Below are positions 27,912 to 48,688 of a stretch of DNA of 64,000 bases, one piece after another; position 1 is the stretch's first letter, and each line of letters begins with the position of its first letter. A program made the translations under genes and the position numbers. The stretch comes from Salinivirgaceae bacterium. GTDB lineage: Bacteria; Bacteroidota; Bacteroidia; Bacteroidales; SZUA-534. The DNA is taken from NCBI GenBank assembly GCA_016284875.1, contig JAEEPS010000003.1:21579-85578 (forward strand). Reading direction: 5' to 3'. The notes below the pieces were generated by a model. That model did not search any database and was not told the DNA's origin. It saw only the letters and a list, made by a program, of their open reading frames with translations.

Positions 27912-27916
27912 TGGTT

Positions 27917-30028: not shown

Positions 30029-30051
30029 AAGCGTTTATATTAAATTGTTAT

Positions 30052-30525
30052 TTATTCATCAAATGAGCGTGCGGCGTTTCCGACGGGAAAAGACCTATAT
30101 TTTTGATAGAATTGGTTTAGGAAAATTGACTCAAGAGTCTTGGATTCCTGACTGCCACGGCACTTGAACACATCGACGTGACTGCCGTTATAGAGCATAT
30201 ACTGATAGCGTGACGACATTTGAATGTTGTCGTCAATGCCATAGTCGGGGTTGTCAAGCAATAGTTTCAAATGCTTGGTGTAATGCTCATCTCGCAAACG
30301 GCGCAATAACTTGTCTGATTTGCCTATGTAGATAATCGGGCTCTTTTTACCGTTGGCATAAGTGTATTTTGTGCCGTCGGTGGCAGAGATAATGTAAATG
30401 CCGACATCGCGATTGGTGACAGGACAATCGAAATCTTTGTCTGCGAAATCACGCAGGTCGAAACTGGCGTCAACTCCTCTGACGGTGCGGAAGTCTGGCA
30501 TAAATGCTTTTATGTATCTTACCAT
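30052..30525 (-). CDS. GIY-YIG-like nuclease domain protein
   Basis: VGIYII ... IIYIGKS ... LRRLRDEH ... LESIFLNQF ... PVGN reproduces the GIY / YIG / Arg / Glu / Asn order of the GIY-YIG superfamily. The GIY-YIG spacer is longer than usual. Confidence 0.45.
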   Translation of the reverse strand: MVRYIKAFMPDFRTVRGVDASFDLRDFADKDFDCPVTNRDVGIYIISATDGTKYTYANGKKSPIIYIGKSDKLLRRLRDEHYTKHLKLLLDNPDYGIDDNIQMSSRYQYMLYNGSHVDVFKCRGSQESKTLESIFLNQFYQKYRSFPVGNAARSFDE

Positions 30526-30535
30526 ATCTTAACAC

Positions 30536-31675
30536 TCAATTGTTTATCAAACTCTTTATCACGGCATCAATTGCGTCGATTGATTTACGAAGTTCAAATT
30601 CTGATTTATCGGCCTGATGAGCTATGGAGACAAATTTCATTTGTTCTGACATTGGAGGAAGAATGACCTTAATGCTTTGGATATGTTTCAAGTTTAATCC
30701 ACCTCTTCCGTCAACATCTCCAGACATTGAGCGCAATTCCCTATATCTGCCCCTCAGATTATGAAATAGATATTCATAATTTACTTCCTCATTTGGTACG
30801 ATAGCACATAAAGATTGGTTCGTACAAAGCTCTATATCGTTAATAGCGACCGTTCCTCGTGTTTTCCCTTGTCCTGCAAGAGCTACAACAATGGAATGAA
30901 TTGGAACCATTTTAGTACTACAGCCATCATAGCCTTGTTGTGTAATTTTTGCGTCTGTATCTTGCACTCTCCCTTTATGTACTTCACCAGAACTCATCCA
31001 AGGAATAATACCATTATCCCAGTAAGACGAAATCTTCGTACTGGGGGTTGCACCAGCAAAACATTCAGCAAAATCGCCAACCTTTTTAACATCGTAGGAT
31101 TTTGGATTATCATCCACACTCCCAAACATCTCGATAAATTGCGATTTCACCATTTCTTCAGTGGCGGTCAAAAGTTTCTTATATGATTCTTTCAGGCGGT
31201 AGGCGGCCCAGAGTTTGTCGGCAAGGGCTTTCTGCTCGGGAAGTGAGGGAAGTGAGAATTCGTAGTCGGCAAGTGTACTCCAGTTAAGAAAATAATTTAC
31301 TCCACCACTCTTGTTTTCTTCGCAATAATCCCAAAAATCATCGGTTTGCATAACCAATGCTAAATATTCTTGAAGTAGGACGTTTCGGTCTTTTGTCTCT
31401 ATAACAAATGTTTTTTCCGAACATATACCATCAAATTCGGCAACTCCACATTTTTTCAAGTGAGGATTCCGAGTAACAAACAAAATTTGACCTGATTTAA
31501 AGCCACAATAAAACATTGGACCAATAGTTGAACCCTTAATCAGTCCCTTGTCGTGAATTATCAGTTCCTCGGATTCAATATGTTCACCGCCAACATAATA
31601 TATTTTGTCGGTATTGAATCTATCTTCTTTTGTATTTGCTCTATGCGCTACTTCTGAAAATTTAACAATACTCAT
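30536..31675 (-). CDS. hsdS: Type I R-M specificity subunit
   Basis: Two target-recognition domains, each followed by the conserved helix (LPSLPEQKALADKL and LPPMSEQMKFVSI). ATGA overlap with hsdM. Confidence 0.85.
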   Translation of the reverse strand: MSIVKFSEVAHRANTKEDRFNTDKIYYVGGEHIESEELIIHDKGLIKGSTIGPMFYCGFKSGQILFVTRNPHLKKCGVAEFDGICSEKTFVIETKDRNVLLQEYLALVMQTDDFWDYCEENKSGGVNYFLNWSTLADYEFSLPSLPEQKALADKLWAAYRLKESYKKLLTATEEMVKSQFIEMFGSVDDNPKSYDVKKVGDFAECFAGATPSTKISSYWDNGIIPWMSSGEVHKGRVQDTDAKITQQGYDGCSTKMVPIHSIVVALAGQGKTRGTVAINDIELCTNQSLCAIVPNEEVNYEYLFHNLRGRYRELRSMSGDVDGRGGLNLKHIQSIKVILPPMSEQMKFVSIAHQADKSEFELRKSIDAIDAVIKSLINN

Positions 31676-33210
31676 ACAATGCTTTCAATTAATGTTTTAT
31701 AACAATTATGCACGGCTTGTGATTCTTTTTCCCAATTTTGGATAAGTACATTTATATCTTCTGATTCTTTCGTATCACTTGATTTTACATAGTACTTGGG
31801 GGAAATTGTATAATTCTTATCAGGAATGCTGTTTGCATCTATTACACAGGTGCGACCATCTATTGTACTATAACTGTTGTAAAGCGACAAAATCATATTT
31901 ATATGATTTTCCGAAAGATAACTCTCCGTGTTTTTGCGCTCGACAAAATCTGTTGCTTTAATTAGCAAAATCTTTCCTTTTTTCTTTTCTTCTTTATGCT
32001 TGCGACAAATAAGAATGCACGCTTCCATTGGTGAATTGAAGAATAAGTTTTTGCCAATGCTTATTACAGCATCAATTAAATCAGCCTCAATAAGATTCTT
32101 CCTAATATCTTTTTCTATTAGCCTATTCAGTATCCCGTGTGGTAAAAGAATGGCACATCTTCCATTAGTATCATTCATAGAAGCCAAAATATGCTGTATA
32201 AATGCATAATCGGCTTTTGATTGCGGTGGTGTGCCAAGGAAATTGCGTCCCCATCGGTCGTTCTGGAAGGCTTCGCGGTTCCAAGTCTTAATGCTGTATG
32301 GCGGATTGGCGAGCACAATGTCGAACTTGCGCAGTTGGCTGCCATCGACAAAGGCGGGGTGGGCAAGCGTGTCCTCGCGCACAATGCTGAAGTCTTCAAC
32401 GCCATTCAGATAAAGGTTCATACGGGCAATAGAAGCGGTGAGCGCGTTAATCTCCTGCCCAAACACCTTCACGCCCTGCCAGGGCTGGCCTTTCTGGCGC
32501 AAATAGTCGAGACACTTCACAAGCATTCCGCCACTGCCACAGGTGGGGTCGTAAATGCTCTCATCGGGCTGTGGCTGCAGAATCTTGGCCATCAGCGTTA
32601 CCACGGTGCGGTTGGTGTAGAACTCCTGCGCGGTGTTGCCTGCATCGTCGGCAAACTTACCAATAAGGTATTCGTAGGCTTGCCCCATCTCGTCGGCTGG
32701 GCACGCGGCAAGGCTCAAGTTGTAGCGCGAGAAATCCTCAATGAGCGAAGTGATTATGTGGTCGGGCATTTTGGCTTTGTTGGTCCAGCCGTCTTTGGGT
32801 CCGAAAATGCCTTCCAGTCCGCCAATCACGCGTCCGTCGGCCTCCTCGCCAGGGTTGGCCTGCTCAATGGCGATAAATGCCTCGACAAGGCGCTGCCCGA
32901 CGTTTTCGGTCACTTCGCGCACATCGCGCCAGTGGGCTCCGTCAGGAATGCGTATTGCCAGTTCCTCGGCCTGCATACCAGCGTATTCGGCACCGCCTTC
33001 GCGCACAAAACCTTCGAACTGCTCGTCGTACACATCGCCAATGCGCTTGAAGAAGAGCAACGGGAAAATGTACTCTTTGTATCCTGCGGCGTCAATTTGT
33101 CCGCGCAGACGTGTGGCGGCTCCCCACAGGAAGGTTTTGAGTTCGTCCAATGAAATGGGCGCGTCGGCTTGGCGGTAATTATGTATTTTGTCTTCTTCTT
33201 TCATACTCAA
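31672..33210 (-). CDS. hsdM: Type I R-M N6-adenine methyltransferase subunit, copy 2
   Basis: HsdM N-terminal domain (LWGAATRLRG), FYT, motif I DPTCGSGGML, catalytic LANPPYS, and a C-terminal NYTISPKYYV tail. Confidence 0.85.
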   Translation of the reverse strand: MSMKEEDKIHNYRQADAPISLDELKTFLWGAATRLRGQIDAAGYKEYIFPLLFFKRIGDVYDEQFEGFVREGGAEYAGMQAEELAIRIPDGAHWRDVREVTENVGQRLVEAFIAIEQANPGEEADGRVIGGLEGIFGPKDGWTNKAKMPDHIITSLIEDFSRYNLSLAACPADEMGQAYEYLIGKFADDAGNTAQEFYTNRTVVTLMAKILQPQPDESIYDPTCGSGGMLVKCLDYLRQKGQPWQGVKVFGQEINALTASIARMNLYLNGVEDFSIVREDTLAHPAFVDGSQLRKFDIVLANPPYSIKTWNREAFQNDRWGRNFLGTPPQSKADYAFIQHILASMNDTNGRCAILLPHGILNRLIEKDIRKNLIEADLIDAVISIGKNLFFNSPMEACILICRKHKEEKKKGKILLIKATDFVERKNTESYLSENHINMILSLYNSYSTIDGRTCVIDANSIPDKNYTISPKYYVKSSDTKESEDINVLIQNWEKESQAVHNCYKTLIESIV

Positions 33211-34736
33211 ATGTTTATCACATTCCTGAACTCCGCCTCACGCATTTTCACTTCCTCGTAAGCCGCCTTGAATTCGGCAAGCACTTCGGCATAGGGGCGA
33301 GTTTCCTCTTTGTGGTACTGCACATATTTGTTTGGCGAGAGGTCGTAGTTCTTTGCGGCAATCTCGTCGAGCATAACCACTTGCGAGTAGTCCTCAACAT
33401 TCTCGTAGTTGGCATAGAGTTCGTAGAGGCGGTCAACATCCTTTGCTTCGAGAATGTTCTGTGCACGTTTCTGGGTGAGGATTTTAGTGCCGTCAATCAT
33501 CAGAATGCGTGCGCTGTGGGCGGCGGGTTTTACCTTGCGCAGAATGAGGAAACAAGGCGAGAGTCCTGTGCCGTAGAATAGTTTGTCGCCAAGCGTGACA
33601 ACGGCCTCCACAAGGTCGCTCTTTACCAGTTTCTCGCGTATGCGGCCTTCCTCGTTGCCACGGAAAAGAACTCCCTGCGGCATCACCACCGCCATACGGC
33701 CTTTGCCTGGCGCCATCGACACTATCATATGCTGAATCCAGGCATAGTCGCCGCACGAGTCGCTTGGCGTGCCCCAAATGTTGCGCCCGAACTTATCCGA
33801 CGACCATTCAACCGAGCCCCATTTCTCAAGCGAGAAGGGCGGATTGGCAATCACGCAGTCGAACTTGGCCACTTCGCCGCCTTGCAGAATCTTCGGGTTG
33901 CGAAGGGTGTCGCCCTGCATAATGTTGAAGTCGCTGGCACCGTGCAGAAAGAGGTTCATCTTGGCAATGGCCGAGTTAACCACATTCTTCTCCTGTCCGA
34001 AGATACTGCCGCAACACAGGCTGCTGTGGTGCATATGGTGGACAGCCTCGATAAGCATACCTCCACTGCCGCAGGCGGGGTCGTATACGGTTTCGCCAGG
34101 TTGTGGGTCGAGTATGCGCACCAAGAGTTGTACTACAGGACGCGGTGTATAGAACTCTCCAGCCTGGGCTTTTGAGTCGTCAGCAAATTTTTTGAGCAAA
34201 ATCTCGTAGGCGTCGCCCATCAGGTCGGAAGGGTAATCGTTGTTGCCCAGATTCTTTGTACTCAAATGCTCAATCAGGTCACGAATCTTTCCGTCGGAAA
34301 GGTTTTTCTTGTCGGTCCACTTTTGCGCGCTGAACATACTCAACACGCCAAAAAGGGTATCGGGGTTGGCTAGTTCTATTCCGCGCATAGCACCCACTAT
34401 GGCAGCGCCGAGGTTTTCGGTCCGCTCGCGCACATCGTTCCAGTGGCAACCGTCGGGAATGACAAATCGGTGCTGCTCGGGCAGGGCGGCATATTCCTCA
34501 TCGCCGCCGCTGTCGGCCAGCGCTATCTGTGTCTCCTCGTCATAGACATCGGAAATGCGCTTATAGTAGAGAATTGGGGTGATATAATCTTTGAAGTTGT
34601 CCTGGCTGACAGGTCCGCGCAGAATGTTGCACGCCTCGAACAGGAAGTTATACAGGTTCTGCACTCCTTCGAGCCGTAATTCTTGCGGTGTCTTGGCAAC
34701 ATCAGCCGAATCCTTTTTATTGTTTTTCTTCGCCAT
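33207..34736 (-). CDS. hsdM: Type I R-M N6-adenine methyltransferase subunit, copy 1
   Basis: HsdM N-terminal domain (LFEACNILRG), GEFYTPR, DPACGSGGML, catalytic IANPPFS, and a C-terminal NYDLSPNKYV tail. ATGA overlap with copy 2. Confidence 0.85.
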   Translation of the reverse strand: MAKKNNKKDSADVAKTPQELRLEGVQNLYNFLFEACNILRGPVSQDNFKDYITPILYYKRISDVYDEETQIALADSGGDEEYAALPEQHRFVIPDGCHWNDVRERTENLGAAIVGAMRGIELANPDTLFGVLSMFSAQKWTDKKNLSDGKIRDLIEHLSTKNLGNNDYPSDLMGDAYEILLKKFADDSKAQAGEFYTPRPVVQLLVRILDPQPGETVYDPACGSGGMLIEAVHHMHHSSLCCGSIFGQEKNVVNSAIAKMNLFLHGASDFNIMQGDTLRNPKILQGGEVAKFDCVIANPPFSLEKWGSVEWSSDKFGRNIWGTPSDSCGDYAWIQHMIVSMAPGKGRMAVVMPQGVLFRGNEEGRIREKLVKSDLVEAVVTLGDKLFYGTGLSPCFLILRKVKPAAHSARILMIDGTKILTQKRAQNILEAKDVDRLYELYANYENVEDYSQVVMLDEIAAKNYDLSPNKYVQYHKEETRPYAEVLAEFKAAYEEVKMREAEFRNVINI

Positions 34737-34876
34737 TATTGTTCAACTACGCAGTGATATGCTTATCAGTCAGCACTTTTTATTCGCTCTTTTTATCCTT
34801 ACAATGATAAGGAAAAAAGGAACAATATAATCATTTTTGGAGGCTGCGCTTGGTTTGTTTATAAGTATTGCTGGTG

Positions 34877-36691
34877 TCATTGGACTTTTCCCGCAATATA
34901 CTCTCTCAAATACTTAAACGGGAACGGAACCACAGTCAGTTGGCCGTTTCGCACGAAAGTGACAGCCATTAGTTTTAACATATCGACAAAAAACAAATCG
35001 CTGTATCTGTAAGCATCAACCATTCTGATATTTGCTGCAGTAGGAATCACTCTTCGCATACCTGCTCCTATTATACCCGAAAAATAGCACAGCGAATGGT
35101 CGTTGTCAGAAAAGCACTTGATGTCTGTTATTGCAGGGAACAATTCTTCACGGCTTTCAATGTTTCGAAGTTTATTGTCACCGCTTTCTAATCGGTTCTT
35201 TATAAGTTCAATTTCGGGAATCGTTCTTAATTTGGTATCATAGATAACATTAATATCATTTCCTTTTTTTACCACGCCCACCACATCTTCATTACTAAAT
35301 ATATCAACACATTCCTGATACTCATTCTGCTCAAACAGAGTGTTTTCTTGTTCCGCTATCGAGAAATCGCCATCGTGTGAGATTGTCATAAAGTAGAAAT
35401 GCTTTTTCTCGTCATCGTCTTTATGGCACACCCCGAATATTAGGTTGTCTGGATAATTGTAATCTTGCCAATTAACCATTGATATGCGCTTTGACACAAG
35501 GTCTTCTTTGATGAGTGCTTCTTGCATTATGTTATCTAACAATGAATTCAATTCTGTTTTTTTGCTATCATCATCAGAGTTCATCAAGTGCGCTATGGTT
35601 TCAATTGTGACGTGTTGTAAGGCGCAGCCTTTGTACACCAAGTCGTGCGGGTCTGCCTTATTTTCGTATTCTTCCTCTTTGTGAATAAGAATAATGTTGA
35701 TTGCATCTTTTTTGGGGCTTTTTAGAACCGACACATCGCAATTAAAATGTTCTAATAGTTCTTCCTTTAGAAATTCAATATTTAATGATGATGTCGAATC
35801 CTGCACTTTGTCAACCAATACTATTCTGCGCAAAGAAGCCATTTCTTCAAATCGTTTCTCCATTTCTTTGACCATTTTGGTAGAAACAGATAACTCTTGA
35901 TATTCGTCAAAGAAGTCGAATTCAATGTGAGCCATCTTGCCAAATGCCGTGTTGAATTTGTCGATGCAGTCACATACGACTCCCATTTTTGTTTTTTGGA
36001 AGTTCTCCAACGAGTCGATTTCGAGGAATTTGATGTTGGATTTCTTATTAGCGGTTTGTCGCATAATATAGGCGTCAGGGTCAGCACCTTTCTCGATTCT
36101 CTTCAAGATATTGTCTTTGCCGAGAACATATTCAGGATATTCGTTGAATTTCTTCTTGCCGAATTTGATATCGTTTTTCTTTGTGACGGACGTGAATGTT
36201 CTTACACTCCAGTCCAAAAGCAATTCCTTTGTTACTTTTAATTCCAAAGTGATTAGTTGTTTGCCTTTCGATTTAGTCCAAGATGGATGATTAATATAGA
36301 AATGCCCAGTAACGTTATGGAATCCAAGGATTTTGCCTTCGTATGTTCCCAATGAATTGAGCAATAACTGAACAACAATATTTTGTGGCACCGTGCTTAT
36401 TGCAACATTTTCAAAAGATATTTTCTCTGTTCCAGGCAGTCTGTCTATGGCCTTACCAAGATTTATTCTGTTTTCGGCAGACTTCTTGAGCATCATATAA
36501 AACGAATTGCCACGCTCGTAAACAACCGATAATACAAATTTTTCATTAGTCAAATCGTCCACCAATTTGGCAGCGCTGTTTCCTTTCCCGAAATGCGTGT
36601 CGGAAGTCTTAACGTTAAAAAACTCGTATGTATCAGACAACAAACCTAATTCAAGATTCGCAATCAATTTGTTAGTTTGTATTCTGCTCAT
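34877..36691 (-). CDS. Unknown 604-aa partner of the helicase-nuclease; possibly Argonaute-like (DdmE-like)
   Basis: Overlaps the upstream helicase-nuclease gene by 20 nt. No catalytic motif is recognisable. It has a weak MID-like string IILIHKEEEYENK...LQHVTIETI and a hydrophobic C-terminus (VVPFPFKYLREYIAGKVQ). The assignment is by architecture and is an inference. Confidence 0.35.
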   Translation of the reverse strand: MSRIQTNKLIANLELGLLSDTYEFFNVKTSDTHFGKGNSAAKLVDDLTNEKFVLSVVYERGNSFYMMLKKSAENRINLGKAIDRLPGTEKISFENVAISTVPQNIVVQLLLNSLGTYEGKILGFHNVTGHFYINHPSWTKSKGKQLITLELKVTKELLLDWSVRTFTSVTKKNDIKFGKKKFNEYPEYVLGKDNILKRIEKGADPDAYIMRQTANKKSNIKFLEIDSLENFQKTKMGVVCDCIDKFNTAFGKMAHIEFDFFDEYQELSVSTKMVKEMEKRFEEMASLRRIVLVDKVQDSTSSLNIEFLKEELLEHFNCDVSVLKSPKKDAINIILIHKEEEYENKADPHDLVYKGCALQHVTIETIAHLMNSDDDSKKTELNSLLDNIMQEALIKEDLVSKRISMVNWQDYNYPDNLIFGVCHKDDDEKKHFYFMTISHDGDFSIAEQENTLFEQNEYQECVDIFSNEDVVGVVKKGNDINVIYDTKLRTIPEIELIKNRLESGDNKLRNIESREELFPAITDIKCFSDNDHSLCYFSGIIGAGMRRVIPTAANIRMVDAYRYSDLFFVDMLKLMAVTFVRNGQLTVVPFPFKYLREYIAGKVQ

Positions 36692-39600
36692 TTTTAAATT
36701 CTTGTATTTTGGTTAAAGCATTATGTGATATTTGGGAATTGCATATTAACGACAACTCAATGATTTCAAAACCATTTTCTGGCGTTGTTGTTATTGCGTC
36801 ATTCTTTGTATCTCTAACATTTGCAATTATCACAGTCCTTACTTCCTTGCACCTTTGGGCTTTTTCAACGACTTTCTTGTGATATTCTTTAGCATCGAAG
36901 CGTGTTGTATCTTTCCAATACTTGAAATCGACATATATGGGTTTCCCTGTTACCTTAAAATCAAATAATTCGTGTTCTTCATTGTTTAATTCTTCCAATG
37001 GGATGCCAAAACCTTCGAAAAGGAACTTCCCGATTGCTTCGCCAAGTGCTCCTTTATAGACATTCTGATAAAGTGGTGGCGACATAATATAATCGCCTTC
37101 TCTAAATTCTGTTGCATATCCATTATCAAGAAAGAACGATTTTAAATTGGGTATACTCTCCAAAAGATTGTAAAGATTAACGTCTTCCTGCGAAACAGAT
37201 GCCGAATCTTTAAATCTTTCTTCTGCTATATTCTCAATTTTGTCAAAATCCTCACTTTGTTTGTAGAAGTATTTGCTGATTGGTTTGCCAAACGTAATAT
37301 AATAGTTGCAATTGAATGGGCGTTTTTCCCATTCTTCCATTGTCAGGGTTGGATGTTTTAATACATATTCACGTATATTTTTCCATTTTTTAATTTCATC
37401 ATTATTCCAAGAGTTTTCAAAACATCTAGTGAGAAATCTTGAAATGCGTTTGTTCGTCAATAACGAATCGCTAATAGCAATTTCGATAACTCTGCTTTGA
37501 GAAGGTTCTTCTGAGAATTTTATTTTTTTCGCCAGCTCCACCATCTCGTGATTTAACAATCTGTCTTCTTCCAATAGAGTGGTTCTGTCCAATGCATCAC
37601 CGAGTTCAGAGTCTGCCAAAACATAAACATTCTTACTGCGATAATTGGTTCGGCATTTTCTACCCATTGCCTGAACAATGATTTTAGTCGCATATATTTT
37701 TACATCACGCAAATTCGATAGTTTTTTCACGACACCAGTTGTTCTCTCTTTGTCGATGTTTATATATGTTCTCTTTATTTCCGCCATTTTTTCGTTTGGA
37801 GTTATTTCTCTTTTATGACCAAGGTATTCCAATTGGAATATTCTGTTTATCGCAGATTCTTCATTGCCACCGCACTGATTAACAAGAGATGTCGGTTTGT
37901 CCAAATAAATGCCTTCTATATCCATCTCTAATTTATTCCTTCTAGTATTATTGATTTTTACGACCTCATCCTTTTTGCTATTTGGTATAGTGTATTGTAA
38001 ATTTTGACCAGCACCGATTGTGGCATAAGTAGATATAATGAACCTTCGCTCGCCTTTACTCAAGTCACCGATTAATTCATTTTTCTTTTGTTCAAAATTG
38101 TCAGAATCCAGAACCACACACATTTTATCTTCAAACTGGACACCTTTTTCTTGTGATAGATATTGAAAAAGTTTAAAAAGCGTTTTTTGGTCAAACTCCC
38201 AATCTCCATTTCTTAAACTTCTTGAAAACAAAGCTAAGTATGACTGAATATTGTTGTCTAAGAATTGTTTAAATGCCAACACGGCTTTGTAATATCTGAC
38301 CTCCTTATAATGATTATTATCTTTATCATATTTACTTGTAAGCGTATGTGCAGCATTTACGATATCAATATCGGTCGTAAATATGTTTGACCAATTAGGA
38401 GCAACATTTGCAGATGTCTTAGTCAATTCTACAATTGTATTTACATTCTCAAATCCTGTTGTTTGGCTTTCAATGACCTTTTTTATTCTTTCTTTATCTT
38501 CTGCTGTCGGTTTCACAAACCTATCGCCCAATTTCCATTCCAGATAGTCAATGTCATAATTGCCCAATACGGTTTTAAATGTTGCTGTGGCAGATATTCC
38601 GATTACTTTTGAAAGAGAACAAATCGAATACATTATACTTTCAGGGGTGTCCTCAAAAACATATTTTTTAATAACCGTTGTGTTATCGTGCGAATAATCG
38701 TCACAGAAATCGTAATGGCTGAATCCGCTTGAGTAAAAGCCGAAATCATCTTTTATTTCAGCATTGTTTGACTGTATCTTCAACGTGTTGTTATATGACA
38801 AAGCCATATTTCTAATAACCCTGTAACTCTCTCCTTGCAGGTGTAATGAGTCAAGTATCGTATCAAGAGCGTGTAATTCTGTAAATTCACCATAAGACTT
38901 GCCTGGCTCTTTCTTTTGGTTTTTGTTTTGATAGTAACTATAAGCCAATATGCAGACAAATCGTGTGAAATGAGAAATTGCACCCTTTATTTTGTCTAAC
39001 GCTTCATACAGAGTCGTGTCCGATTCACCTTTCGAAATGAGTTCCAGGGTATTGATATTTTCATTTTTGATAAATCTTGTTGTTACATTTTCTTCGCTAG
39101 TTGTATAATTATTGTGAGTTAAATCGGAAAACAAAACAATGCGTTTTTCTTCAAAGCCAACAGATTTATGGTGTTGTAGCAAGTGATATTTATCGGAGAT
39201 TTCATTAAAGATTCTAATGTTTTTTTCGAGAGCGCGTTTATGAGACGGCTTGTTTTTGACGTTATCCCATATATTCGATGGTATTGATTCCTGGTTGTCA
39301 AGGCATATTTTGATATTCCTAAAAAGGTCAATATAGTCTATACCATTGTTCAGACCGTTTTGAACAATCACATCTTGAATCTCTTTTTTCGTCGCATCAA
39401 ACTCGTCAATGAACACTATGGAATTTTTGAAAAAGGAAGTTTCATAAAGTCTGACGCCTTTTTCAATGATTGTGTCGAAAGGAAGAACTAATTTCTTCAT
39501 CGTCACGAAAAAAACACTTTTCTCTTCGGAGAAAACGGCAGGGTACAAATCTCCCACCCATTGCCAACTTTTGTCATTCTTGATGGCATTTATTTTGTCT

Positions 39601-40055
39601 ATTCTCTTCTTGAATTTTCGAGAAAGAGTTTTGCTTATCAATCCTCTGAAATCCCGTTCAATATCAACGTATGCTTCAGGATTCTTAACACCTGCCATTA
39701 TTAAGGCTTCAAACTTTTTATACTCTTCCGAGTATCGTATGTCTTTGTCTTTAATGTTTTCCTTGACTTTCTCAAAGTTTTCAATGGCAGAATCTTTATT
39801 GGAAAGTGCTCTGAAAACTAAATCCCGCAGTTCGTCATCTTTATCTAAATCGTCCAATAGTTCCTCATAAGGGTCATCCACATTTTTTATTAATGATGTA
39901 ACGAAGAATATCTTTTTGTCCTGATTTTTTTTAAGATATTGCTTGATGAATTGTAAAACATTAAAGGTTTTTCCCGTTCCTGTTGGCATATCTAACAGTA
40001 ACAATCCAGTATTCTTTGTTTTATCCAGACAATATTTGCTAATTAATTCCAACAT
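36672..40055 (-). CDS. SF2 helicase fused to a C-terminal PD-(D/E)xK-like nuclease (DdmD-like)
   Basis: Walker A LLDMPTGTGKTF, motif II VFIDEFDATK, motif VI-like VQAMGRKCRT. C-terminal GALGEAIGKF ... ELFDFKV ... YVDFKYWK (D...D/E-x-K). Confidence 0.6.
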   Translation of the reverse strand: MLELISKYCLDKTKNTGLLLLDMPTGTGKTFNVLQFIKQYLKKNQDKKIFFVTSLIKNVDDPYEELLDDLDKDDELRDLVFRALSNKDSAIENFEKVKENIKDKDIRYSEEYKKFEALIMAGVKNPEAYVDIERDFRGLISKTLSRKFKKRIDKINAIKNDKSWQWVGDLYPAVFSEEKSVFFVTMKKLVLPFDTIIEKGVRLYETSFFKNSIVFIDEFDATKKEIQDVIVQNGLNNGIDYIDLFRNIKICLDNQESIPSNIWDNVKNKPSHKRALEKNIRIFNEISDKYHLLQHHKSVGFEEKRIVLFSDLTHNNYTTSEENVTTRFIKNENINTLELISKGESDTTLYEALDKIKGAISHFTRFVCILAYSYYQNKNQKKEPGKSYGEFTELHALDTILDSLHLQGESYRVIRNMALSYNNTLKIQSNNAEIKDDFGFYSSGFSHYDFCDDYSHDNTTVIKKYVFEDTPESIMYSICSLSKVIGISATATFKTVLGNYDIDYLEWKLGDRFVKPTAEDKERIKKVIESQTTGFENVNTIVELTKTSANVAPNWSNIFTTDIDIVNAAHTLTSKYDKDNNHYKEVRYYKAVLAFKQFLDNNIQSYLALFSRSLRNGDWEFDQKTLFKLFQYLSQEKGVQFEDKMCVVLDSDNFEQKKNELIGDLSKGERRFIISTYATIGAGQNLQYTIPNSKKDEVVKINNTRRNKLEMDIEGIYLDKPTSLVNQCGGNEESAINRIFQLEYLGHKREITPNEKMAEIKRTYINIDKERTTGVVKKLSNLRDVKIYATKIIVQAMGRKCRTNYRSKNVYVLADSELGDALDRTTLLEEDRLLNHEMVELAKKIKFSEEPSQSRVIEIAISDSLLTNKRISRFLTRCFENSWNNDEIKKWKNIREYVLKHPTLTMEEWEKRPFNCNYYITFGKPISKYFYKQSEDFDKIENIAEERFKDSASVSQEDVNLYNLLESIPNLKSFFLDNGYATEFREGDYIMSPPLYQNVYKGALGEAIGKFLFEGFGIPLEELNNEEHELFDFKVTGKPIYVDFKYWKDTTRFDAKEYHKKVVEKAQRCKEVRTVIIANVRDTKNDAITTTPENGFEIIELSLICNSQISHNALTKIQEFKNEQNTN

Positions 40056-40084
40056 AAAATGTTGTTTTTTATCAAATTAGACCA

Positions 40085-40092
40085 CAAAAATA
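40085..40092 (-). promoter_or_regulatory. Bacteroides -7 box (TATTTTTG on the minus strand) for the helicase-nuclease pair
   Basis: Plus-strand CAAAAATA is TATTTTTG on the minus strand, about 30 nt upstream of the start codon at 40055. Confidence 0.35.
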
Positions 40093-40144
40093 TTTGAACA
40101 GCAAAAAGCATTGTCACCTTTTGACGTGTTTTGGCACAACTTTT

Positions 40145-42484
40145 TTAAGAACCCTTCATTTTTTTCATTGCTTCTATGAAATAACCATCGATTTTTTCCT
40201 TTATTAAATATTCTTCATACTTATCATTAGAGCCATCGGTTGGCAAACGCAACACCTCTATTCCGGCTTTTTTACAAATCCCATCTCTTATTTTATCGTG
40301 TATCCTATGTTGCTCATCATTGCGGTGGTGTGCCCCATCTACTTCAATTACAAGTTTTTCTGCTTTGTTTATTTTTACAATAAAATCAAAACGTCTATTA
40401 CCATTATTGTAATATTCTAATTCTTCTTTGGATAATTGTGCTAATTCTTTTCTGTCTTTGAATAATTGTGAAATACATTCACATTCACTCCATTTCCTTT
40501 CTTTATCTATCGTTACACAACCATTATATTCTTTAATATTAATTATGTCATTCAGTACTTCTCCGCACCTTTTTTCGTAGCCAGAAGACCTGTCTAAATA
40601 ATCAGACTCATCATAATCTTCTGGTCTATTGTATTTCTCGTCATTATGAAATGGTTCCGCCGTGTCAAAAATTGACTTGGTTTTTGATTTATGGAAACCA
40701 TAAATACCATTTTTGAAATCTTCATAGTCCTTAAAATGTTTATATACATAGTCTGTCAGTTTCTGAATAAACAACTGGTCATCTTCAAAATTTGTTTTTT
40801 TTGTCTTACGCTTTTTTTGGTATCTTTCCCGGTATCTTTCTATTTGTAATTGACGCCATTCCCTATCTCTTTGTTTGTTGCTCTTCCTTGGTATATATTT
40901 TTTTTCTATCATTTTCCTCTCGACCAATTTATCTTGTACATTTTCGTTCATCAAATGCGTTGAAGTAATAACTATGAGTTCCTCCTTTGCTCTTGAAACC
41001 GCAACGTTTACCAATCGTTTTTGTTGGCTCCATGGAAATTCCCAAGTATTGTCTTCAACAGGCATAAGATACACAACATCATATTCAGAACCTTGAGACT
41101 TGTGTATTGTCTGTATTGTCAATAAATTTACGTCACCATGCCCGTCAATTAACTTCGTTTTGAGACTATTGTTTTTATTTTTAATTTTTTCTTCCAACTC
41201 TTCCAATTGTCCTCTAAAAGGGGACATAATGCAAACCGTCTTCCACTTATTTATACTATTAACAAATCCTTCCCACTCCTCATTGAGGAAAATGTTGATT
41301 TGCTTTCTGTTGACTTTACTATTGTTGCCATCTGGCATTTTTATACTTTCACAATAGTTCCCTTCAAAATAAACAAGCCTTATTGGGCAGTTTTCCTTTA
41401 TTGTCGCTATTTGCGTATTATTTTCGACTGGTTCTAAATCCAAATCCTCTTCCTCTTTTTTATATACATAATCCTTGCAAAATCCGATTATCCCAGGGTG
41501 GCATCGATAATGTTTCCTTAAATATATTGGTTTAATGTCAAAAACAGTCTGACAAACTTTCATAAAACTTTTATCAGTCGTCTGTTTGTAAATATCATCG
41601 TCATTTATTATGAATCGTTCATGCACTTTTTTTAACGCGTCTTCTTTAACTATTGGCGGCAACTGATTGTCATCTCCCACAATAACAAGTTGTTTTGCGG
41701 TAGTCATTGCAATTATTCCCAAGTCAATTGTTATCAACGAAGCCTCATCAATAATAATGTAATCAAAACATGATTTTTCTCCATCGCTAAAAAGTGTTTT
41801 TAGGGATTGAATAGTGCTGGTAACTATAGGCCAAGCCCCCAGAAATTCCCTTTCGTCCCCATTATACATTTTAACAATTTCTTCTTTGAAATATTCATAT
41901 TCTTTGTTTTGGTATTTATACGTTAGTTTTTCCCTATTATTAAAAAAGCGGTAACCATGCGTATCATTGAAAGTGTCTCGTTTAGACTCGTCCCCTAAGA
42001 AAGCCGCACAATAATTAATATCATTGCATTTTTCTATTTTTGTTTCCACATCTGACACTGCAAGATTATTTGAAGATACCATTGCCACAGTTCGCCCCAA
42101 CCCATTTATGCAGGCAATTAGATTAAAGATTGTTTTAGTCTTACCTGTTCCTGGAGGTCCTTGAATAATTGTTACTGGTTTTTCTAATGCAGCTTTAATG
42201 GCACTTATTTGTTTGGCATTTAAATCGGTGTCTATTAAATACTTTTCATAATCAATGGCTGTGCTTTCTGAGAGTTCTCCTACATTTTCACCCAAAAAGG
42301 TTTTCGTTAATTTGTTAAGGTCGGCATAATTGGTAGTAGCAAAGTACCAATGATTACTATAGGGCGCTTGTTTTGTATCATCATTATTGTCTTTTCCAAA
42401 TTCATACGCAAGAGCTGCAAAGTACTTGAATCTTTCCTCTGGCGTTTGCACGGCACACTGATTTTGGGGATAGTTTGTGTTCAT
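40145..42484 (-). CDS. SF1 (Upf1/DNA2-like) helicase fused to a C-terminal DUF559/Vsr-like endonuclease domain
   Basis: IIQGPPGTGKTKT (Walker A), IIIDEASLI, VIVGDDNQLPP, HYRCHPGIIGF, TIHKSQGSEYDVV, VAVSRAKEELIVI. After a K/R-rich linker comes RRFDFIVKINKAEKLVIEVDGAHH...IEVLRLP. Confidence 0.7.
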   Translation of the reverse strand: MNTNYPQNQCAVQTPEERFKYFAALAYEFGKDNNDDTKQAPYSNHWYFATTNYADLNKLTKTFLGENVGELSESTAIDYEKYLIDTDLNAKQISAIKAALEKPVTIIQGPPGTGKTKTIFNLIACINGLGRTVAMVSSNNLAVSDVETKIEKCNDINYCAAFLGDESKRDTFNDTHGYRFFNNREKLTYKYQNKEYEYFKEEIVKMYNGDEREFLGAWPIVTSTIQSLKTLFSDGEKSCFDYIIIDEASLITIDLGIIAMTTAKQLVIVGDDNQLPPIVKEDALKKVHERFIINDDDIYKQTTDKSFMKVCQTVFDIKPIYLRKHYRCHPGIIGFCKDYVYKKEEEDLDLEPVENNTQIATIKENCPIRLVYFEGNYCESIKMPDGNNSKVNRKQINIFLNEEWEGFVNSINKWKTVCIMSPFRGQLEELEEKIKNKNNSLKTKLIDGHGDVNLLTIQTIHKSQGSEYDVVYLMPVEDNTWEFPWSQQKRLVNVAVSRAKEELIVITSTHLMNENVQDKLVERKMIEKKYIPRKSNKQRDREWRQLQIERYRERYQKKRKTKKTNFEDDQLFIQKLTDYVYKHFKDYEDFKNGIYGFHKSKTKSIFDTAEPFHNDEKYNRPEDYDESDYLDRSSGYEKRCGEVLNDIINIKEYNGCVTIDKERKWSECECISQLFKDRKELAQLSKEELEYYNNGNRRFDFIVKINKAEKLVIEVDGAHHRNDEQHRIHDKIRDGICKKAGIEVLRLPTDGSNDKYEEYLIKEKIDGYFIEAMKKMKGS

Positions 42485-42535
42485 CTACGTTTTGCCTTTT
42501 CAGCGTCAGCAACTTACCCGTGATGCAGATTCACA

Positions 42536-42700
42536 AACAAATACCTCAGGACATAAAGAAAGCGTGGACATTCCTTATGTGCTCCGAGGTATTTGGCGTG
42601 ACCCGACCGTCAAATAAGTTCCGTCCACGCCAAAGGCGTGAACATTTACTGAACTTATCTAATGATGGTCTCTTTCTATCGCCAAATTTTCGGAGCACCC
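42536..42700. other. Repeat-rich, strongly self-complementary intergenic segment (structured RNA or recombinase/regulator binding array)
   Basis: A 10-bp perfect stem CAAATACCTC (42538-47) / GAGGTATTTG (42586-95), with inner stem ACATAA/TTATGT. Direct repeats GCGTGGACATT (42562-72) and GCGTGAACATT (42636-46). An inverted copy GTCCACGC (42623-30). Hairpin CACGCC-AAA-GGCGTG (42626-40). Long-range pair GTGCTCCG (42579-86) / CGGAGCAC (42691-98). Confidence 0.4.
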
Positions 42701-42893
42701 AGATAGTAGCAAACGCTATGATTAATAATATGTTAAGTCAAATAATTCTTTCTGTTTCTTATTCGTGTTTTATGTTTTATGATGTCAAAGATAAATGAGC
42801 GAGCGAAAAATGAAAAGAAAAAAAAGAAGATCGGGATTTACAGCCAAGTCCGCCGTGTTGTGAAATAATAAATGATGAATAAATACTTTAAGC

Positions 42894-44108
42894 TTACAAA
42901 TCCCTGTTATACACCCTTTTTATCCCCAACTTTTTCGGTATTTCCGCTTTTTTCTTTTGCATTTTCATTCTTGCCTTCAGCGACTCACGAAGCATTTGGG
43001 GATTAACGCCATAAAAACCAGCCTTTTCGGCACGTTCTTTTACTATTTTGAAAACGCTGATCCTTGAAATCCGCTTTCCGTTGGCTGTAATAAAGAAATC
43101 TTCGAGTTCAGGAAAAGCAAAAGAGAATTCCGCTCCGTCAAATCCGAACCTTTCGTTTTCACGGTCAAGATATATGACCAAATTCCACCATCTGCTATAA
43201 TTGAAATAATTACGCAATGCCAGCCTGGTTTGAGAATCAATAATTTGTCGGCGTTCACGCCTCGTACCACGTCCGACAGTAATAATATAATTATCCCAAT
43301 CAATGTCGCTGACTTTCAAATTAATCAGTTCCGAGACAGTTAGTCCAATATTGCTTAAAGCCATGATTATCGCCTTGTCTCGATAACCGACAAATGTGCC
43401 GATACGCTTTTTGTTGGTGTTAATCCTATCGACTATTTTTTCAATGTCGCGAGTGGTAATTGTCCTTTTTGGCGAATGTTTGTCTGTCGGCTTAATTACA
43501 TCGGGGAATGAATTGTCATCACCGTAATGAAACCCATATTTTTCGTTCAAGAACTTGCAGAACAACCTGATTGACTGAACCTTGCGACGAATCGTCGGTG
43601 GTTTATATGTTGAGTTCGGCTGTTGATTTCTTTTTTGTATTTTTGATAACCTTTCCGACTTGCTCATCATTATTTCTAACGTAGGCAAAGGTTGTGACTT
43701 TACATGTTTCTGTATATAATCCATCCAATTGCAAATTGCTTCTGACAAGTCGTATTGGAAAGAAAGAATCCCATTGCTCATATTCTCAAAAATCATTGGC
43801 ACAAAATCACTTATGTCAGTATATTTGGCGCGAATTGTGCCGATAGAATTGCCTTTGTTTATGTTTTCTTGCAGATAGGATTCAAATATCACTTTCAATT
43901 TTTCTATGGCATAATTGATTATATCTTCCATTATCAGTCCCTCATATACGTCAGATATTTCAGAAAAATGGAACACAAATAAATTCTCTCCCAAACGACC
44001 ATAATAGTACGATTCCAACCAGTCCTGACACAACATAATTTTATATTGCGCTTCGGATATCTCTTCCCTGTCCGTTCCAGTTTGTCTTAATTTATTTTCT
44101 TCTTCCAT
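42894..44108 (-). CDS. Second tyrosine recombinase (divergent, long N-terminal extension)
   Basis: The C-terminal ~200 aa carry YRDKAIIMAL (Arg I), LTVSELINLKVSDID, NPQMLRESL (box II, with Q in place of the usual H) and LGIKRVY near the C-terminus. The first ~190 aa match nothing I recognise. Confidence 0.6.
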   Translation of the reverse strand: MEEENKLRQTGTDREEISEAQYKIMLCQDWLESYYYGRLGENLFVFHFSEISDVYEGLIMEDIINYAIEKLKVIFESYLQENINKGNSIGTIRAKYTDISDFVPMIFENMSNGILSFQYDLSEAICNWMDYIQKHVKSQPLPTLEIMMSKSERLSKIQKRNQQPNSTYKPPTIRRKVQSIRLFCKFLNEKYGFHYGDDNSFPDVIKPTDKHSPKRTITTRDIEKIVDRINTNKKRIGTFVGYRDKAIIMALSNIGLTVSELINLKVSDIDWDNYIITVGRGTRRERRQIIDSQTRLALRNYFNYSRWWNLVIYLDRENERFGFDGAEFSFAFPELEDFFITANGKRISRISVFKIVKERAEKAGFYGVNPQMLRESLKARMKMQKKKAEIPKKLGIKRVYNRDL

Positions 44109-44354
44109 AATAATTCAAAATCCAACACAAAATTAGTTAACAATATCCACCATAATTGCAATGTTGAAAAATTTTTTCAACCTCTATTAACCTGACAATA
44201 AACCAAATAACTAACCTCATTCAAAAAATGTAAAACCAAACTTGTTTCTGTCAATATATTTGCTGTAGGAGAAATCCGACTAAATTTGCAGTTAACTCAT
44301 TAAATATCAATAAATTAAACCCTATTTTTGTTTGTTTTTTTTGGTGTGGTTAGT

Positions 44355-44362
44355 TATATTTG
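44355..44362 (+). promoter_or_regulatory. Bacteroides -7 box (TATATTTG) for the plus-strand ORF block
   Basis: Matches TAnnTTTG, with T-rich/TTTG sequence ~20 bp upstream, and 28 nt before the ATG at 44390. Confidence 0.4.
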
Positions 44363-44389
44363 CCAGCACGAAACCAAACAAAAAAAACT

Positions 44390-45805: not shown

Positions 45806-45856
45806 TAGGCTGATACATAATTAATTATTAAATATCGACAGTATAATAAAGAACTT

Positions 45857-46648: not shown

Positions 46649-46746
46649 TTAAGGATTAGAACTGTAATATAATATTGACCGATGAACCTGATTGGTTCAT
46701 TATCAACTCATAACAACAAGAATCTTAACATTAAAACAATATTAAT

Positions 46747-47322: not shown

Positions 47323-47543
47323 TTATACTTAAAGAATTGGAGGCACGGGATATAAAACTCATTTATAAATGAAGCAGTAAGGCTGGAAAAAGAAAAAATG
47401 AAACGCCGCCTTAAAAACGAGTCCAACCACATGAGATTTTGGACTTCGATATTGTAAAAAAAGCTAGTAAATGGGGCTCTGCCACCCTTTATACAAACGA
47501 GTGATAATGATATTTGAAATGTTTAACAACAAATAATTAGAGT

Positions 47544-47957: not shown

Positions 47958-47988
47958 TTTATTGTATAACCCTTAAAACCAAATAACT

Positions 47989-48609: not shown

Positions 48610-48688
48610 ATTAGAAAATGAATCAGAATGCGTTAATGACCAACTGCTTAGGTGTGCATTGCCTTTCTGATTAAGTCCATTAGTTGAC

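What the first reader, a model, noticed from the sequence alone, without database searches (positions are those of the whole stretch)
34877..40055. Two-gene helicase-nuclease plus putative Argonaute-like partner (DdmDE-like architecture) on a mobilizable element
- **Seen in the sequence:**
  - A 1127-aa SF2 helicase (MPTGTGKTF, FIDEFD, QAMGRKCR) carries a C-terminal PD-(D/E)xK-like motif (ELFDF...YVDFKYWK).
  - It overlaps by 20 nt a 604-aa protein with no recognisable catalytic motif.
  - The pair has its own TAnnTTTG box.
- **Inference:** gene order, relative sizes and domain logic mirror Vibrio cholerae DdmD and DdmE. From memory, DdmD is a helicase-nuclease of roughly 1,200 aa and DdmE a catalytically inactive pAgo-like protein of roughly 700 aa. 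The weak MID-like stretch (IILIHKEEEYENK...LQHVTIETI) is compatible with this but not diagnostic.
- **Why it matters:** either outcome is interesting. One is a compact, divergent Bacteroidales DdmDE, a plasmid-elimination module riding on a mobilizable element. The other is an undescribed helicase-nuclease system with a novel sensor subunit.
Basis: partly seen in the sequence, partly recalled or inferred. Interest (0 to 1): 0.8.

Follow-up and report, generated by a model that had tools for sequence, protein, structure and literature searches.

The report
Compact DdmDE plasmid-defence gene pair
The two genes are a real but divergent relative of DdmDE, the Argonaute-guided helicase-nuclease system that destroys plasmids in Vibrio cholerae; this gut-anaerobe version lacks the Argonaute insertion domain that holds the helicase in the two studied systems.

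Summary

- **DdmD.** The 1127-aa protein matches the PADLOC DdmD model (1.3e-42) and solved DdmD structures (phmmer 2e-53; Foldseek 2e-58, TM up to 0.77). The Walker A lysine (K29), DExD, SAT, motif VI and all five nuclease residues (E1006, E1029, D1032, D1043, K1045) are invariant in 50 relatives.
- **DdmE.** The 604-aa protein is a DdmE-type ("long-C") Argonaute (family profile vs Lactobacillus casei DdmE 1.2e-41 over the full length; Foldseek 4e-32). The guide 5'-end pocket is conserved, with one Tyr-to-His change, and there is no catalytic tetrad.
- **Gene pair.** The genes overlap by 20 nt. They recur as a self-contained pair in all 52 loci from Bacteroidales, Clostridia, Fibrobacter and Treponema that kept DNA just upstream of a well-covered ddmE, with no conserved third gene.
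- **Setting.** The pair sits in a defence cluster on a roughly 38-kb integrative mobilizable element beside tRNA-Ser.
- **What is new.** The PIWI insertion domain (INS/DID) is cut from about 110-130 to about 27 residues. It contacts DdmD in both solved complexes and is essential in V. cholerae. Among 137 full-length representatives the length is bimodal (99 short, 38 long).

Verdict: a new structural variant of a known system. Function is inferred, not tested.

The parts
36672..40055 (-). ddmD homologue, 1127 aa: SF2 (XPD/DinG-like) helicase fused to a C-terminal PD-(D/E)xK nuclease
   Evidence: ORF. PADLOC DdmD 1.3e-42. PDB DdmD 2.2e-53. AF2 model pLDDT 85, pTM 0.85. Foldseek 9ix4_B 2.3e-58 and 9ezx_A TM 0.77.
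37515..40055 (-). DdmD helicase part (about residues 1-847): HD1 with a Cys-free insertion (about 57-178) and Arch (about 237-468), then HD2 (about 528-847). Walker A K29 is the codon at 39969-39971; DEFD is at 39396-39407.
   Evidence: Domain limits were transferred from L. casei DdmD through the alignment. Motifs I, II, III and VI are invariant in 50/50 relatives. There is no Cys in residues 57-178.
36675..37514 (-). DdmD nuclease domain (about residues 848-1127). Catalytic residues E1006, E1029, D1032, D1043 and K1045 (K1045 codon 36921-36923).
   Evidence: These align with V. cholerae DdmD E1059/E1082/D1085/D1100/K1102 and are invariant in 33 and in 50 relatives.
34877..36691 (-). ddmE homologue, 604 aa: catalytically inactive long-C-type prokaryotic Argonaute, compact form
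   Evidence: ORF. PADLOC DdmE 3.8e-10. PDB DdmE 1.6e-14. Family profile vs L. casei DdmE 1.2e-41 over positions 3-591 / residues 6-704. AF2 pLDDT 82, pTM 0.82. Foldseek 9iw3_A 4e-32.
35471..35878 (-). DdmE MID domain (about residues 272-407) with the guide 5'-end pocket: H349, Q359, E391, K395. It is completed by C-terminal K593 and E597 (34901-34915).
   Evidence: These map onto V. cholerae Y363/Q376/E401/K405/K674/E678 and L. casei Y339/K395. Conservation is shown.
35135..35215 (-). Vestigial PIWI insertion (residues 493-519, two short helices) where L. casei and V. cholerae DdmE carry the 107-aa (L. casei) INS/DID domain that contacts DdmD
   Evidence: HMMER and MAFFT alignments both show gaps of 71-86 aa here. 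The P492-to-Y536 distance is 44 aa against 129-130 aa. The AF2 helices 494-502 and 511-517 have pLDDT 86-95.
36672..36691 (-). 20-nt overlap of the ddmD stop and the ddmE start (operon, probable translational coupling)
   Evidence: The two genes overlap in 45 of the 52 related loci that carry both genes, by 1-71 nt in 44 of them (mostly 4-26 nt).
40085..40092 (-). TAnnTTTG box (TATTTTTG) 30 nt upstream of the ddmD ATG; possible Bacteroidetes -7 promoter element
   Evidence: The motif is not enriched in the window, so this is weak evidence.
12461..50541 (.). About 38-kb integrative mobilizable element carrying the pair. It is bounded by 32-nt direct repeats (12461-12492 and 50510-50541) and lies next to tRNA-Ser (50569-50654). 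It holds an integrase (12507..13817) and a relaxase (17286..18737). Its defence cargo is hsdR, gmrSD, hsdS, two hsdM, ddmE, ddmD and an SF1 helicase-DUF2726 gene.
   Evidence: Repeats, tRNA, Pfam, PADLOC.

Best explanation
The two genes encode a DdmDE-family defence module.

**Shown here**
- The first gene product is a DdmD homologue with a complete ATPase/helicase core and a complete PD-(D/E)xK active site.
- The second is a DdmE-type Argonaute with an intact guide 5'-end pocket and no slicer residues.
- The genes form an overlapping, self-contained, horizontally mobile two-gene operon.

**Inferred from the V. cholerae and L. casei systems**
- DdmE loads short 5'-phosphorylated DNA guides and base-pairs with invading plasmid (or other mobile-element) DNA, opening a D-loop.
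- It hands the displaced strand to DdmD.
- DdmD translocates 5'-3' on ATP and nicks or degrades the DNA, so the replicon is lost.

**Difference from the studied systems**
- This DdmE lacks the INS/DID insertion domain.
- Recruitment of DdmD must therefore rest on other surfaces. The likely ones are the L1/C-APAZ side of DdmE and the HD2 segment of DdmD (about residues 551-579, with invariant W555). Alternatively the exposed non-target strand itself could recruit DdmD.
For: **DdmD identity**
- PADLOC DdmD 1.3e-42.
- phmmer vs PDB: 2.2e-53 to L. casei DdmD, covering residues 54-1083, and 2.3e-39 to V. cholerae DdmD.
- Foldseek: top 21 hits are all DdmD, TM 0.71-0.77; DinG and XPD follow at 1e-11 to 1e-8.
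- K29 corresponds to Vc K55. E1006/E1029/D1032/D1043/K1045 correspond to Vc E1059/E1082/D1085/D1100/K1102, and alanine substitutions of those abolish plasmid elimination. All are invariant in 50 homologues.

**DdmE identity**
- PADLOC DdmE 3.8e-10.
- Family profile vs L. casei DdmE 1.2e-41 over the full length, and vs V. cholerae DdmE 3.7e-25.
- Foldseek: top 6 hits are DdmE (4e-32, TM 0.68), then eukaryotic and Thermus Argonautes.
- Pocket residues: K395 and K593 are invariant in both sets (60 and 137 sequences). Q359 is invariant in the 60 and Q in 129 of the 137. E597 is invariant in the 60 and E in 134 of the 137. Position 349 is H or Y.
- No conserved Asp/Glu/His in the PIWI region apart from E597.

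**Operon**
- 20-nt overlap.
- A DdmD gene lies directly upstream, on the same strand, in all 52 related loci that kept DNA just upstream of a well-covered ddmE.
- DNA homology to relatives ends at the borders of the two genes.
- No flanking gene family occurs in more than 6 of 56 loci.
Against:
- The INS/DID domain, whose deletion abolishes activity in V. cholerae and which makes the main DdmD contacts in L. casei, is reduced to about 27 residues. The hand-over step therefore cannot be identical.
- The stacking Tyr of the 5'-end pocket is His here (H349), so guide preference (5'-P vs 5'-OH, DNA vs RNA) is not certain.
- Identity to the characterised proteins is only 15-20%.
- Dimeric auto-inhibition of DdmD was not assessed.
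- Whether the target is plasmids, phages or other integrative elements is unknown.
Confidence: 0.8

Rival explanations
1. This is the same protein family but a mechanistically distinct subtype. Without INS/DID, the compact DdmE does not bind DdmD stably. It only marks or opens target DNA, or it uses another guide type (5'-OH DNA or RNA) because of the Tyr-to-His change. DdmD then loads on the exposed single strand on its own.
For: - The INS is 34-56 aa in 99 of 137 full-length representatives and 106-126 aa in 38, with none in between. These are two discrete architectures.
- The L. casei interface residues E519, R522, D524, R564 and P565 have no counterpart in the window protein.
- L. casei DdmD W897, which stacks on INS P565, aligns with S848.
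- V. cholerae DdmD alone degrades ssDNA.
Against: - Tight gene overlap and strict co-occurrence argue for a physical partnership.
- The second interface, L1/PAZ with HD2, could be enough, and its regions exist in both models.
- The rest of the 5'-phosphate/Mg pocket is intact.
- H and Y alternate at position 349 among close relatives, which suggests they are equivalent.
Confidence: 0.3
2. The unit is a three-gene system that includes the upstream 779-aa SF1 helicase-DUF2726 protein (40145..42484).
For: - The gene is on the same strand, only 89 nt upstream of ddmD.
- It resembles Mokosh MkoC/MkoA helicases (7.7e-40 and 5.9e-37).
Against: - Homology with the 96%-identical relative L009 stops at 40125, before this gene.
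- None of the other loci has a homologue next to ddmDE; the largest flanking family occurs in 6 of 56 loci and is unrelated.
- The pair stands alone between housekeeping genes in L001.
Confidence: 0.04
3. The large protein is a type III restriction Res-like or generic DEAD-box helicase, and the partner is an unrelated protein of unknown fold.
For: - Pfam reports only ResIII (5e-07) for the 1127-aa protein and nothing for the 604-aa protein.
- NCBIfam reports nothing for either.
- Public names are 'DEAD/DEAH box helicase family protein' and 'hypothetical protein'.
Against: - The ResIII hit covers only residues 14-70.
- Full-length sequence and fold matches are to DdmD and DdmE.
- No Mod methylase is paired with it.
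Confidence: 0.01

Closest known systems
Lactobacillus casei DdmDE (PDB 9IX4, 9IW3, 9IXM)
   Same: - It is the closest solved relative of both proteins (DdmD 2.2e-53; DdmE 1.6e-14, or 1.2e-41 with the family profile; Foldseek 2.3e-58 and 4e-32).
- It has the same gene order, the same helicase and nuclease motifs, the same N-L1-short PAZ-L2-MID-PIWI order, the same 5'-end pocket (K395 in both) and no DEDX tetrad.
   Different: - Identity is only 17-20%.
- The L. casei INS domain (residues 510-616), which binds DdmD HD2 and the DNA duplex, is replaced by about 27 residues.
- The pocket Tyr (Y339) is His (H349).
- DdmD is about 65 aa shorter.
Vibrio cholerae DdmDE (VC1770-71; PDB 8U3K, 9EZY, 9BGK)
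   Same: - The two-gene operon, the catalytic residues (K55 = K29; E1059/E1082/D1085/D1100/K1102 = E1006/E1029/D1032/D1043/K1045) and the MID pocket (Q376/E401/K405/K674/E678 = Q359/E391/K395/K593/E597) all correspond.
- It is also carried on a genomic island next to a type I R-M locus with an embedded GmrSD-type enzyme.
   Different: - Identity is 15-19%.
- The INS/DID domain (four helices, essential in V. cholerae) is missing.
- Y363 is His here.
- There is no WYL regulator gene upstream; an SF1 helicase gene sits there instead.
- The host is an anaerobic Bacteroidales bacterium.
Type I CRISPR Cascade-Cas3 (an analogy, not homology)
   Same: A guide-bearing sensor opens target DNA and hands the displaced strand to a helicase-nuclease. 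The authors of the L. casei study draw this analogy.
   Different: There is no CRISPR array or crRNA. The sensor is an Argonaute. DdmD is an XPD/DinG-like 5'-3' helicase with a PD-(D/E)xK nuclease, not an HD-nuclease Cas3.
Long-A and long-B prokaryotic Argonautes (e.g. Thermus thermophilus Ago)
   Same: They share the overall bilobed Argonaute fold (Foldseek 1e-8 to 1e-5).
   Different: The match is far weaker (TM 0.28-0.38). This protein has no canonical PAZ and no slicer tetrad, and it has an obligatory DdmD partner.

Membership tests
DdmDE: DdmD | Full-length homology and fold match to experimentally characterised DdmD | tested here: met
   PADLOC DdmD 1.3e-42. PDB 9ix4 2.2e-53 and 8u0u 2.3e-39. 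Foldseek top 21 hits all DdmD, TM 0.71-0.77.
DdmDE: DdmD | SF2 XPD/DinG-like helicase core with ATPase motifs (Walker A Lys equivalent to Vc K55) | tested here: met
   GTGKT (K29), DEFD, SAT and QxxGRxxR are invariant in 50/50. DinG and XPD are the next fold hits.
DdmDE: DdmD | C-terminal PD-(D/E)xK nuclease with the E-E-D-D-K site | tested here: met
   E1006/E1029/D1032/D1043/K1045 align with Vc E1059/E1082/D1085/D1100/K1102 and are invariant.
DdmDE: DdmD | HD1 insertion resembling the Fe-S domain of DinG but without a cluster | tested here: met
   No cysteine in residues 57-178.
DdmDE: DdmD | Auto-inhibited homodimer released by DdmE and ssDNA | not testable with these tools
   No multimer prediction was available. 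It needs SEC or cryo-EM.
DdmDE: DdmE (long-C pAgo) | Argonaute fold N-L1-C-APAZ-L2-MID-PIWI, closest to DdmE | tested here: met
   Profile vs 9iw3 1.2e-41 over the full length. Foldseek DdmE 4e-32 to 4e-21 and other Argonautes 1e-8 or weaker.
DdmDE: DdmE (long-C pAgo) | MID pocket for the guide 5'-phosphate/Mg2+ (Vc Y363, Q376, E401, K405, K674, E678) | tested here: met
   Q359, E391, K395, K593 and E597 are present and conserved. Y363 is replaced by H349, and H or Y alternate in the family.
DdmDE: DdmE (long-C pAgo) | No DEDX slicer tetrad in PIWI | tested here: met
   No invariant or near-invariant Asp/Glu/His in residues 400-604 except the Mg ligand E597.
DdmDE: DdmE (long-C pAgo) | INS/DID domain inserted in PIWI that binds DdmD HD2 (said to be conserved in long-C pAgos; its deletion inactivates Vc DdmDE) | tested here: not met
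   27 residues (493-519) against 107 in L. casei. The P492-Y536 distance is 44 aa against 129-130 aa. The length is bimodal in the family. The requirement in V. cholerae is.
DdmDE system | ddmD followed by ddmE in one operon, self-sufficient | tested here: met
   20-nt overlap. The same arrangement occurs in all 52 related loci that kept DNA just upstream of a well-covered ddmE. There is no conserved third gene.
DdmDE system | DNA-guided plasmid elimination phenotype | not testable with these tools
   It needs plasmid-loss and in vitro nicking assays.
Type III restriction (Res/Mod) | Res helicase-endonuclease paired with a Mod methylase | tested here: not met
   ResIII covers only residues 14-70. 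The partner is an Argonaute, not a Mod.
Mokosh-like or three-gene helicase system | Conserved linkage with the upstream SF1 helicase-DUF2726 gene | tested here: not met

The most novel reading that the evidence does not exclude
INS-less 'compact' DdmE proteins define a separate, numerically important DdmDE subtype in gut and rumen anaerobes (Bacteroidales, Clostridia, Fibrobacter, Treponema). This subtype recruits or activates DdmD through a different interface than the V. cholerae and L. casei systems. It would be a minimal Argonaute-helicase-nuclease hand-over machine, and it would show that the 'essential' DID domain is dispensable in nature.
Probability: 0.35. Interest if true: 0.6.

Novelty: new variant of a known kind. 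Interest (0 to 1): 0.45.

Why it matters
- **Wider distribution than described.**
  - This window and the related loci show the family is widespread in strict anaerobes of gut and rumen.
  - A profile search found 1235 DdmE clusters at 50% identity with E <= 1e-3.
  - NCBIfam has no model for either protein, and Pfam has only a short ResIII hit on DdmD and nothing for DdmE. Public names are 'hypothetical' or 'DEAD/DEAH helicase'.
- **A natural deletion experiment.** The compact form removes the domain thought to be needed to dock the effector, so it can show which contacts really drive the Argonaute-to-helicase hand-over.
- **Practical relevance.** A plasmid-destroying module on a mobilizable element of Bacteroidales bears on plasmid ecology and on the genetic tractability of gut anaerobes. 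A smaller DdmE is also a more convenient scaffold for DNA-guided tools.

Tried and rejected
- **Pfam and NCBIfam.** Almost uninformative: only a short ResIII hit. The Res-like reading was rejected after the full-length DdmD matches.
- **Three-gene hypothesis with the SF1 helicase-DUF2726 gene.** Rejected by synteny.
- **DdmD indel that co-varies with presence or absence of the DdmE INS.** None of 5 aa or more was found in 50 sequences, so no compensating structural change in DdmD could be shown.
- **Neighbour-joining tree of 137 DdmE representatives, to ask whether INS loss happened once.**
  - INS-bearing sequences fall into 7 pure clades (the largest has 25) and INS-less ones into 12.
  - The tree is crude, so this is inconclusive. 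It shows either several gains or losses, or tree noise.
- **TAnnTTTG box.** It is not enriched over shuffles, so it was not used as evidence.
- **Plasmid and phage collections searched with DdmE.** Two distant megaplasmid hits and no phage hit. Nothing indicates the compact pair is plasmid- or phage-borne.
- **Literature.**
  - No held paper links DdmDE substantively with Bacteroidota.
  - The original 2022 discovery paper is not held, so its statement on distribution is quoted second-hand.
Full report
**1. Observation**

- The two ORFs exist exactly as described. One is 36672..40055(-), 1127 aa; the other is 34877..36691(-), 604 aa. They overlap by 20 nt.
- All quoted peptide motifs are present.
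- An 89-nt gap upstream of the large gene holds TATTTTTG at 40085-40092(-), 30 nt before the ATG. The TAnnTTTG pattern occurs 68 times in the window against 61 expected, so it carries little weight.

**2. The large protein is DdmD**

- PADLOC's DdmD model matches at 1.3e-42.
- phmmer against PDB sequences gives L. casei DdmD (9ix4) at 2.2e-53, covering residues 54-1083, and V. cholerae DdmD at 2.3e-39.
- An AlphaFold2 model built on 33 homologues has pLDDT 85 and pTM 0.85. Its 21 best PDB matches are all DdmD chains (E down to 2.3e-58, TM 0.71-0.77). DinG and XPD follow at 1e-11 to 1e-8.
- The alignment puts K29 on V. cholerae K55. It puts E1006/E1029/D1032/D1043/K1045 on E1059/E1082/D1085/D1100/K1102. 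Alanine substitutions of those residues abolish plasmid elimination.
- These residues, and motifs II (DEFD), III (SAT) and VI (QxxGRxxR), are invariant in 33 and in 50 homologues.
- The HD1 insertion (about residues 57-178) has no cysteine, as in DdmD, which lacks the Fe-S cluster of DinG.
- Pfam sees only a ResIII fragment at residues 14-70, and NCBIfam sees nothing.

**3. The small protein is a DdmE-type Argonaute**

- PADLOC DdmE matches at 3.8e-10.
- phmmer against PDB gives L. casei DdmE at 1.6e-14 and V. cholerae DdmE at 5.6e-08.
- A profile of 24 family members aligns with L. casei DdmE over the whole length at 1.2e-41, and with V. cholerae DdmE at 3.7e-25.
- The AlphaFold2 model has pLDDT 82 and pTM 0.82. 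It matches the six DdmE chains best (4e-32 to 4e-21, TM up to 0.68), then human Ago2, a Piwi protein and Thermus Argonaute at 4e-08 to 4e-05.
- The guide 5'-end pocket known from the structures maps as follows:

| V. cholerae DdmE | Window DdmE |
|---|---|
| Y363 | H349 |
| Q376 | Q359 |
| E401 | E391 |
| K405 | K395 |
| K674 | K593 |
| E678 | E597 |

- In 60 full-length proteins from genomes, Q359, K395, K593 and E597 are invariant. Position 349 is His in 41 and Tyr in 19.
- In 137 cluster representatives K395 and K593 are again invariant, and position 349 is Tyr in 75 and His in 59.
- The PIWI half has no conserved acidic residue apart from E597, so there is no slicer tetrad, as in DdmE.

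**4. The pair is a unit**

- Relatives of DdmE at 36-39% identity sit behind an overlapping 1120-1158-aa gene in unrelated contexts: between clpB and tex in one case, and next to tnpV and IS21 in another.
- A scan of one genome per species returned 79 loci. The taxa are Bacteroidales and Paludibacteraceae (66-99% identity), then Lachnospiraceae, Oscillospiraceae, Ruminococcus, Clostridium aminophilum, Waltera, Erysipelotrichaceae, Fibrobacter and Treponema. Single MAGs labelled Alphaproteobacteria and Methanomassiliicoccales also appear. More distantly there is Limosilactobacillus.
- All 52 distinct loci that kept DNA just upstream of a well-covered ddmE carry a DdmD gene there, on the same strand. 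The genes overlap in 45 of these, by 1-71 nt in 44 of them and mostly by 4-26 nt.
- DNA similarity between the window and seven Bacteroidales loci starts and stops at the borders of the two genes. The exception is the near-identical L009, where it also covers the two hsdM genes but ends at 40125.
- No flanking gene family is shared by more than 6 of 56 loci. The upstream SF1 helicase-DUF2726 gene is therefore a neighbour, not a component.

**5. What differs from the studied systems**

- L. casei DdmE has a 107-aa insertion in PIWI (INS, residues 510-616). It makes the main contacts with DdmD HD2 and also holds the DNA duplex.
- V. cholerae DdmE has the same domain. One group calls it INS and another DID, a four-helix module. 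It is described as conserved in long-C Argonautes, and deleting it abolishes plasmid elimination.
- In the window protein both HMMER and MAFFT place a gap of 71-86 residues there.
- Between the invariant P492 and Y536 there are 44 residues, against 129-130 in Lactobacillus-type proteins and 118 in Oribacterium and Lactimicrobium relatives.
- What remains, residues 493-519, is modelled with confidence as two short helices.
- Among the 137 full-length representatives closest to the family profile the length is bimodal. It is 34-56 residues in 99 and 106-126 in 38, with none in between. That list is biased toward the compact query.
- L. casei interface residues E519, R522, D524, R564 and P565, and most of its DNA-contacting residues in the INS, have no counterpart in the window protein.
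- I found no DdmD indel of 5 aa or more that tracks the INS state.
- A crude neighbour-joining tree does not make either state monophyletic.

**6. Mechanism**

- Shown here:
  - Both enzymatic centres of DdmD and the guide pocket of DdmE are intact and under strong conservation.
  - DdmE cannot slice.
  - The genes are coupled.
- Inferred from the V. cholerae and L. casei work:
  - DdmE, guided by short DNA, binds complementary invader DNA and exposes the non-target strand.
  - DdmD is loaded onto that strand, translocates 5'-3' and nicks or degrades the DNA, so the replicon is lost.
- My inference: without INS, docking must use the second interface seen in L. casei (DdmE L1/PAZ with DdmD HD2). 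It may also use the HD2 segment equivalent to V. cholerae S603-A633, which maps to about residues 551-579 here and contains the invariant W555.

**7. Setting**

- The pair lies in an element of about 38 kb.
  - It is bounded by 32-nt direct repeats (12461-12492 and 50510-50541, 30 of 32 identical).
  - One repeat is 28 nt from tRNA-Ser.
  - The element holds a Bacteroidetes-type tyrosine integrase right after the left repeat and a MobA/VirD2 relaxase.
  - No conjugation genes were seen, so it is an integrative mobilizable element.
- Its cargo is a defence cluster: an AbiEi-like gene, hsdR, GmrSD, a 157-aa ORF, hsdS, two hsdM paralogues, ddmE, ddmD and the SF1 helicase-DUF2726 gene.
- V. cholerae VPI-2 likewise places ddmDE next to a type I R-M locus with an embedded GmrSD-like system.
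- DdmE has only two distant hits in 72,556 plasmids and none in phages.

**8. Comparison and novelty**

- By sequence, fold, active sites and operon structure this is a DdmDE-family system.
- It fails one feature that the literature treats as characteristic and functionally required, the INS/DID domain. I therefore call it a new variant of a known kind rather than a plain new member.
- I found no held paper that describes DdmDE in Bacteroidota or an INS-less DdmE. The 2022 discovery paper could not be read.
- The family is large: 1235 clusters at 50% identity with E <= 1e-3 and 545 with E <= 1e-30.
- Interest is moderate. The identification itself is what current defence-finder models would give. 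The compact architecture and its wide spread in gut anaerobes are the parts worth following up.

Noticed in passing
window 40145-42484 (-): A 779-aa SF1 (Upf1-like, AAA_11/AAA_12) helicase with a C-terminal DUF2726 domain. It resembles Mokosh MkoC/MkoA (7.7e-40 and 5.9e-37) and lies directly upstream of ddmD. It is not linked to ddmDE in any other locus, so it is probably a separate single-gene defence candidate.
   Followed up: partly
window 24151-34736 (-): A type I R-M locus with two tandem hsdM paralogues (509 and 512 aa, 40% identical, 4-nt overlap). A GmrSD type IV enzyme (703 aa) and an unannotatable 157-aa ORF are embedded between hsdR and hsdS, and an AbiEi-like gene (1.3e-58) lies beyond hsdR. 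The layout (type I R-M with embedded GmrSD next to ddmDE) parallels the defence region of V. cholerae VPI-2.
   Followed up: partly
window 12461-12492 and 50510-50541; tRNA-Ser 50569-50654: 32-nt direct repeats (30 of 32 identical) bound an element of about 38 kb beside tRNA-Ser. It holds an integrase (12507..13817), a relaxase (17286..18737), HipA (20420..21676) and UmuD/UmuC (22187..23924). A second integrase (42894..44108) lies inside it, which suggests a nested or composite element.
   Followed up: partly
window 19431-19730 / 22207-22506 and 46321-46620 / 47627-47926: Two pairs of 300-nt direct repeats (94% and 87% identical). One copy of the first pair lies inside the umuD-like ORF. Their origin is not examined.
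   Followed up: no
window 44360-50031 (+): A low-GC run of ORFs inside the element (481, 263, 191, 206, 198 and 179 aa), mostly without Pfam or PADLOC matches. The only clear hit is a metallophosphatase at 45857..46648; the rest have at most hits below Pfam's cut-off. This is uncharacterised cargo.
   Followed up: partly
L012 and L027 (contig JAILLP010000036.1, Paludibacteraceae MAG): One contig carries two divergent ddmDE pairs (67% and 36% identity to the window DdmE), about 90 kb apart.
   Followed up: no
L073 (Methanomassiliicoccales MAG) and L070 (Alphaproteobacteria MAG): ddmDE pairs at about 26% identity on contigs binned to an archaeon and to an alphaproteobacterium from gut samples. 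This is either cross-domain transfer or mis-binning.
   Followed up: no
window 13-4242 (+): A 1409-aa ORF with several internal direct repeats (periods of about 240-320 nt; repeat families D3-D6). It is probably a repetitive surface protein.
   Followed up: no
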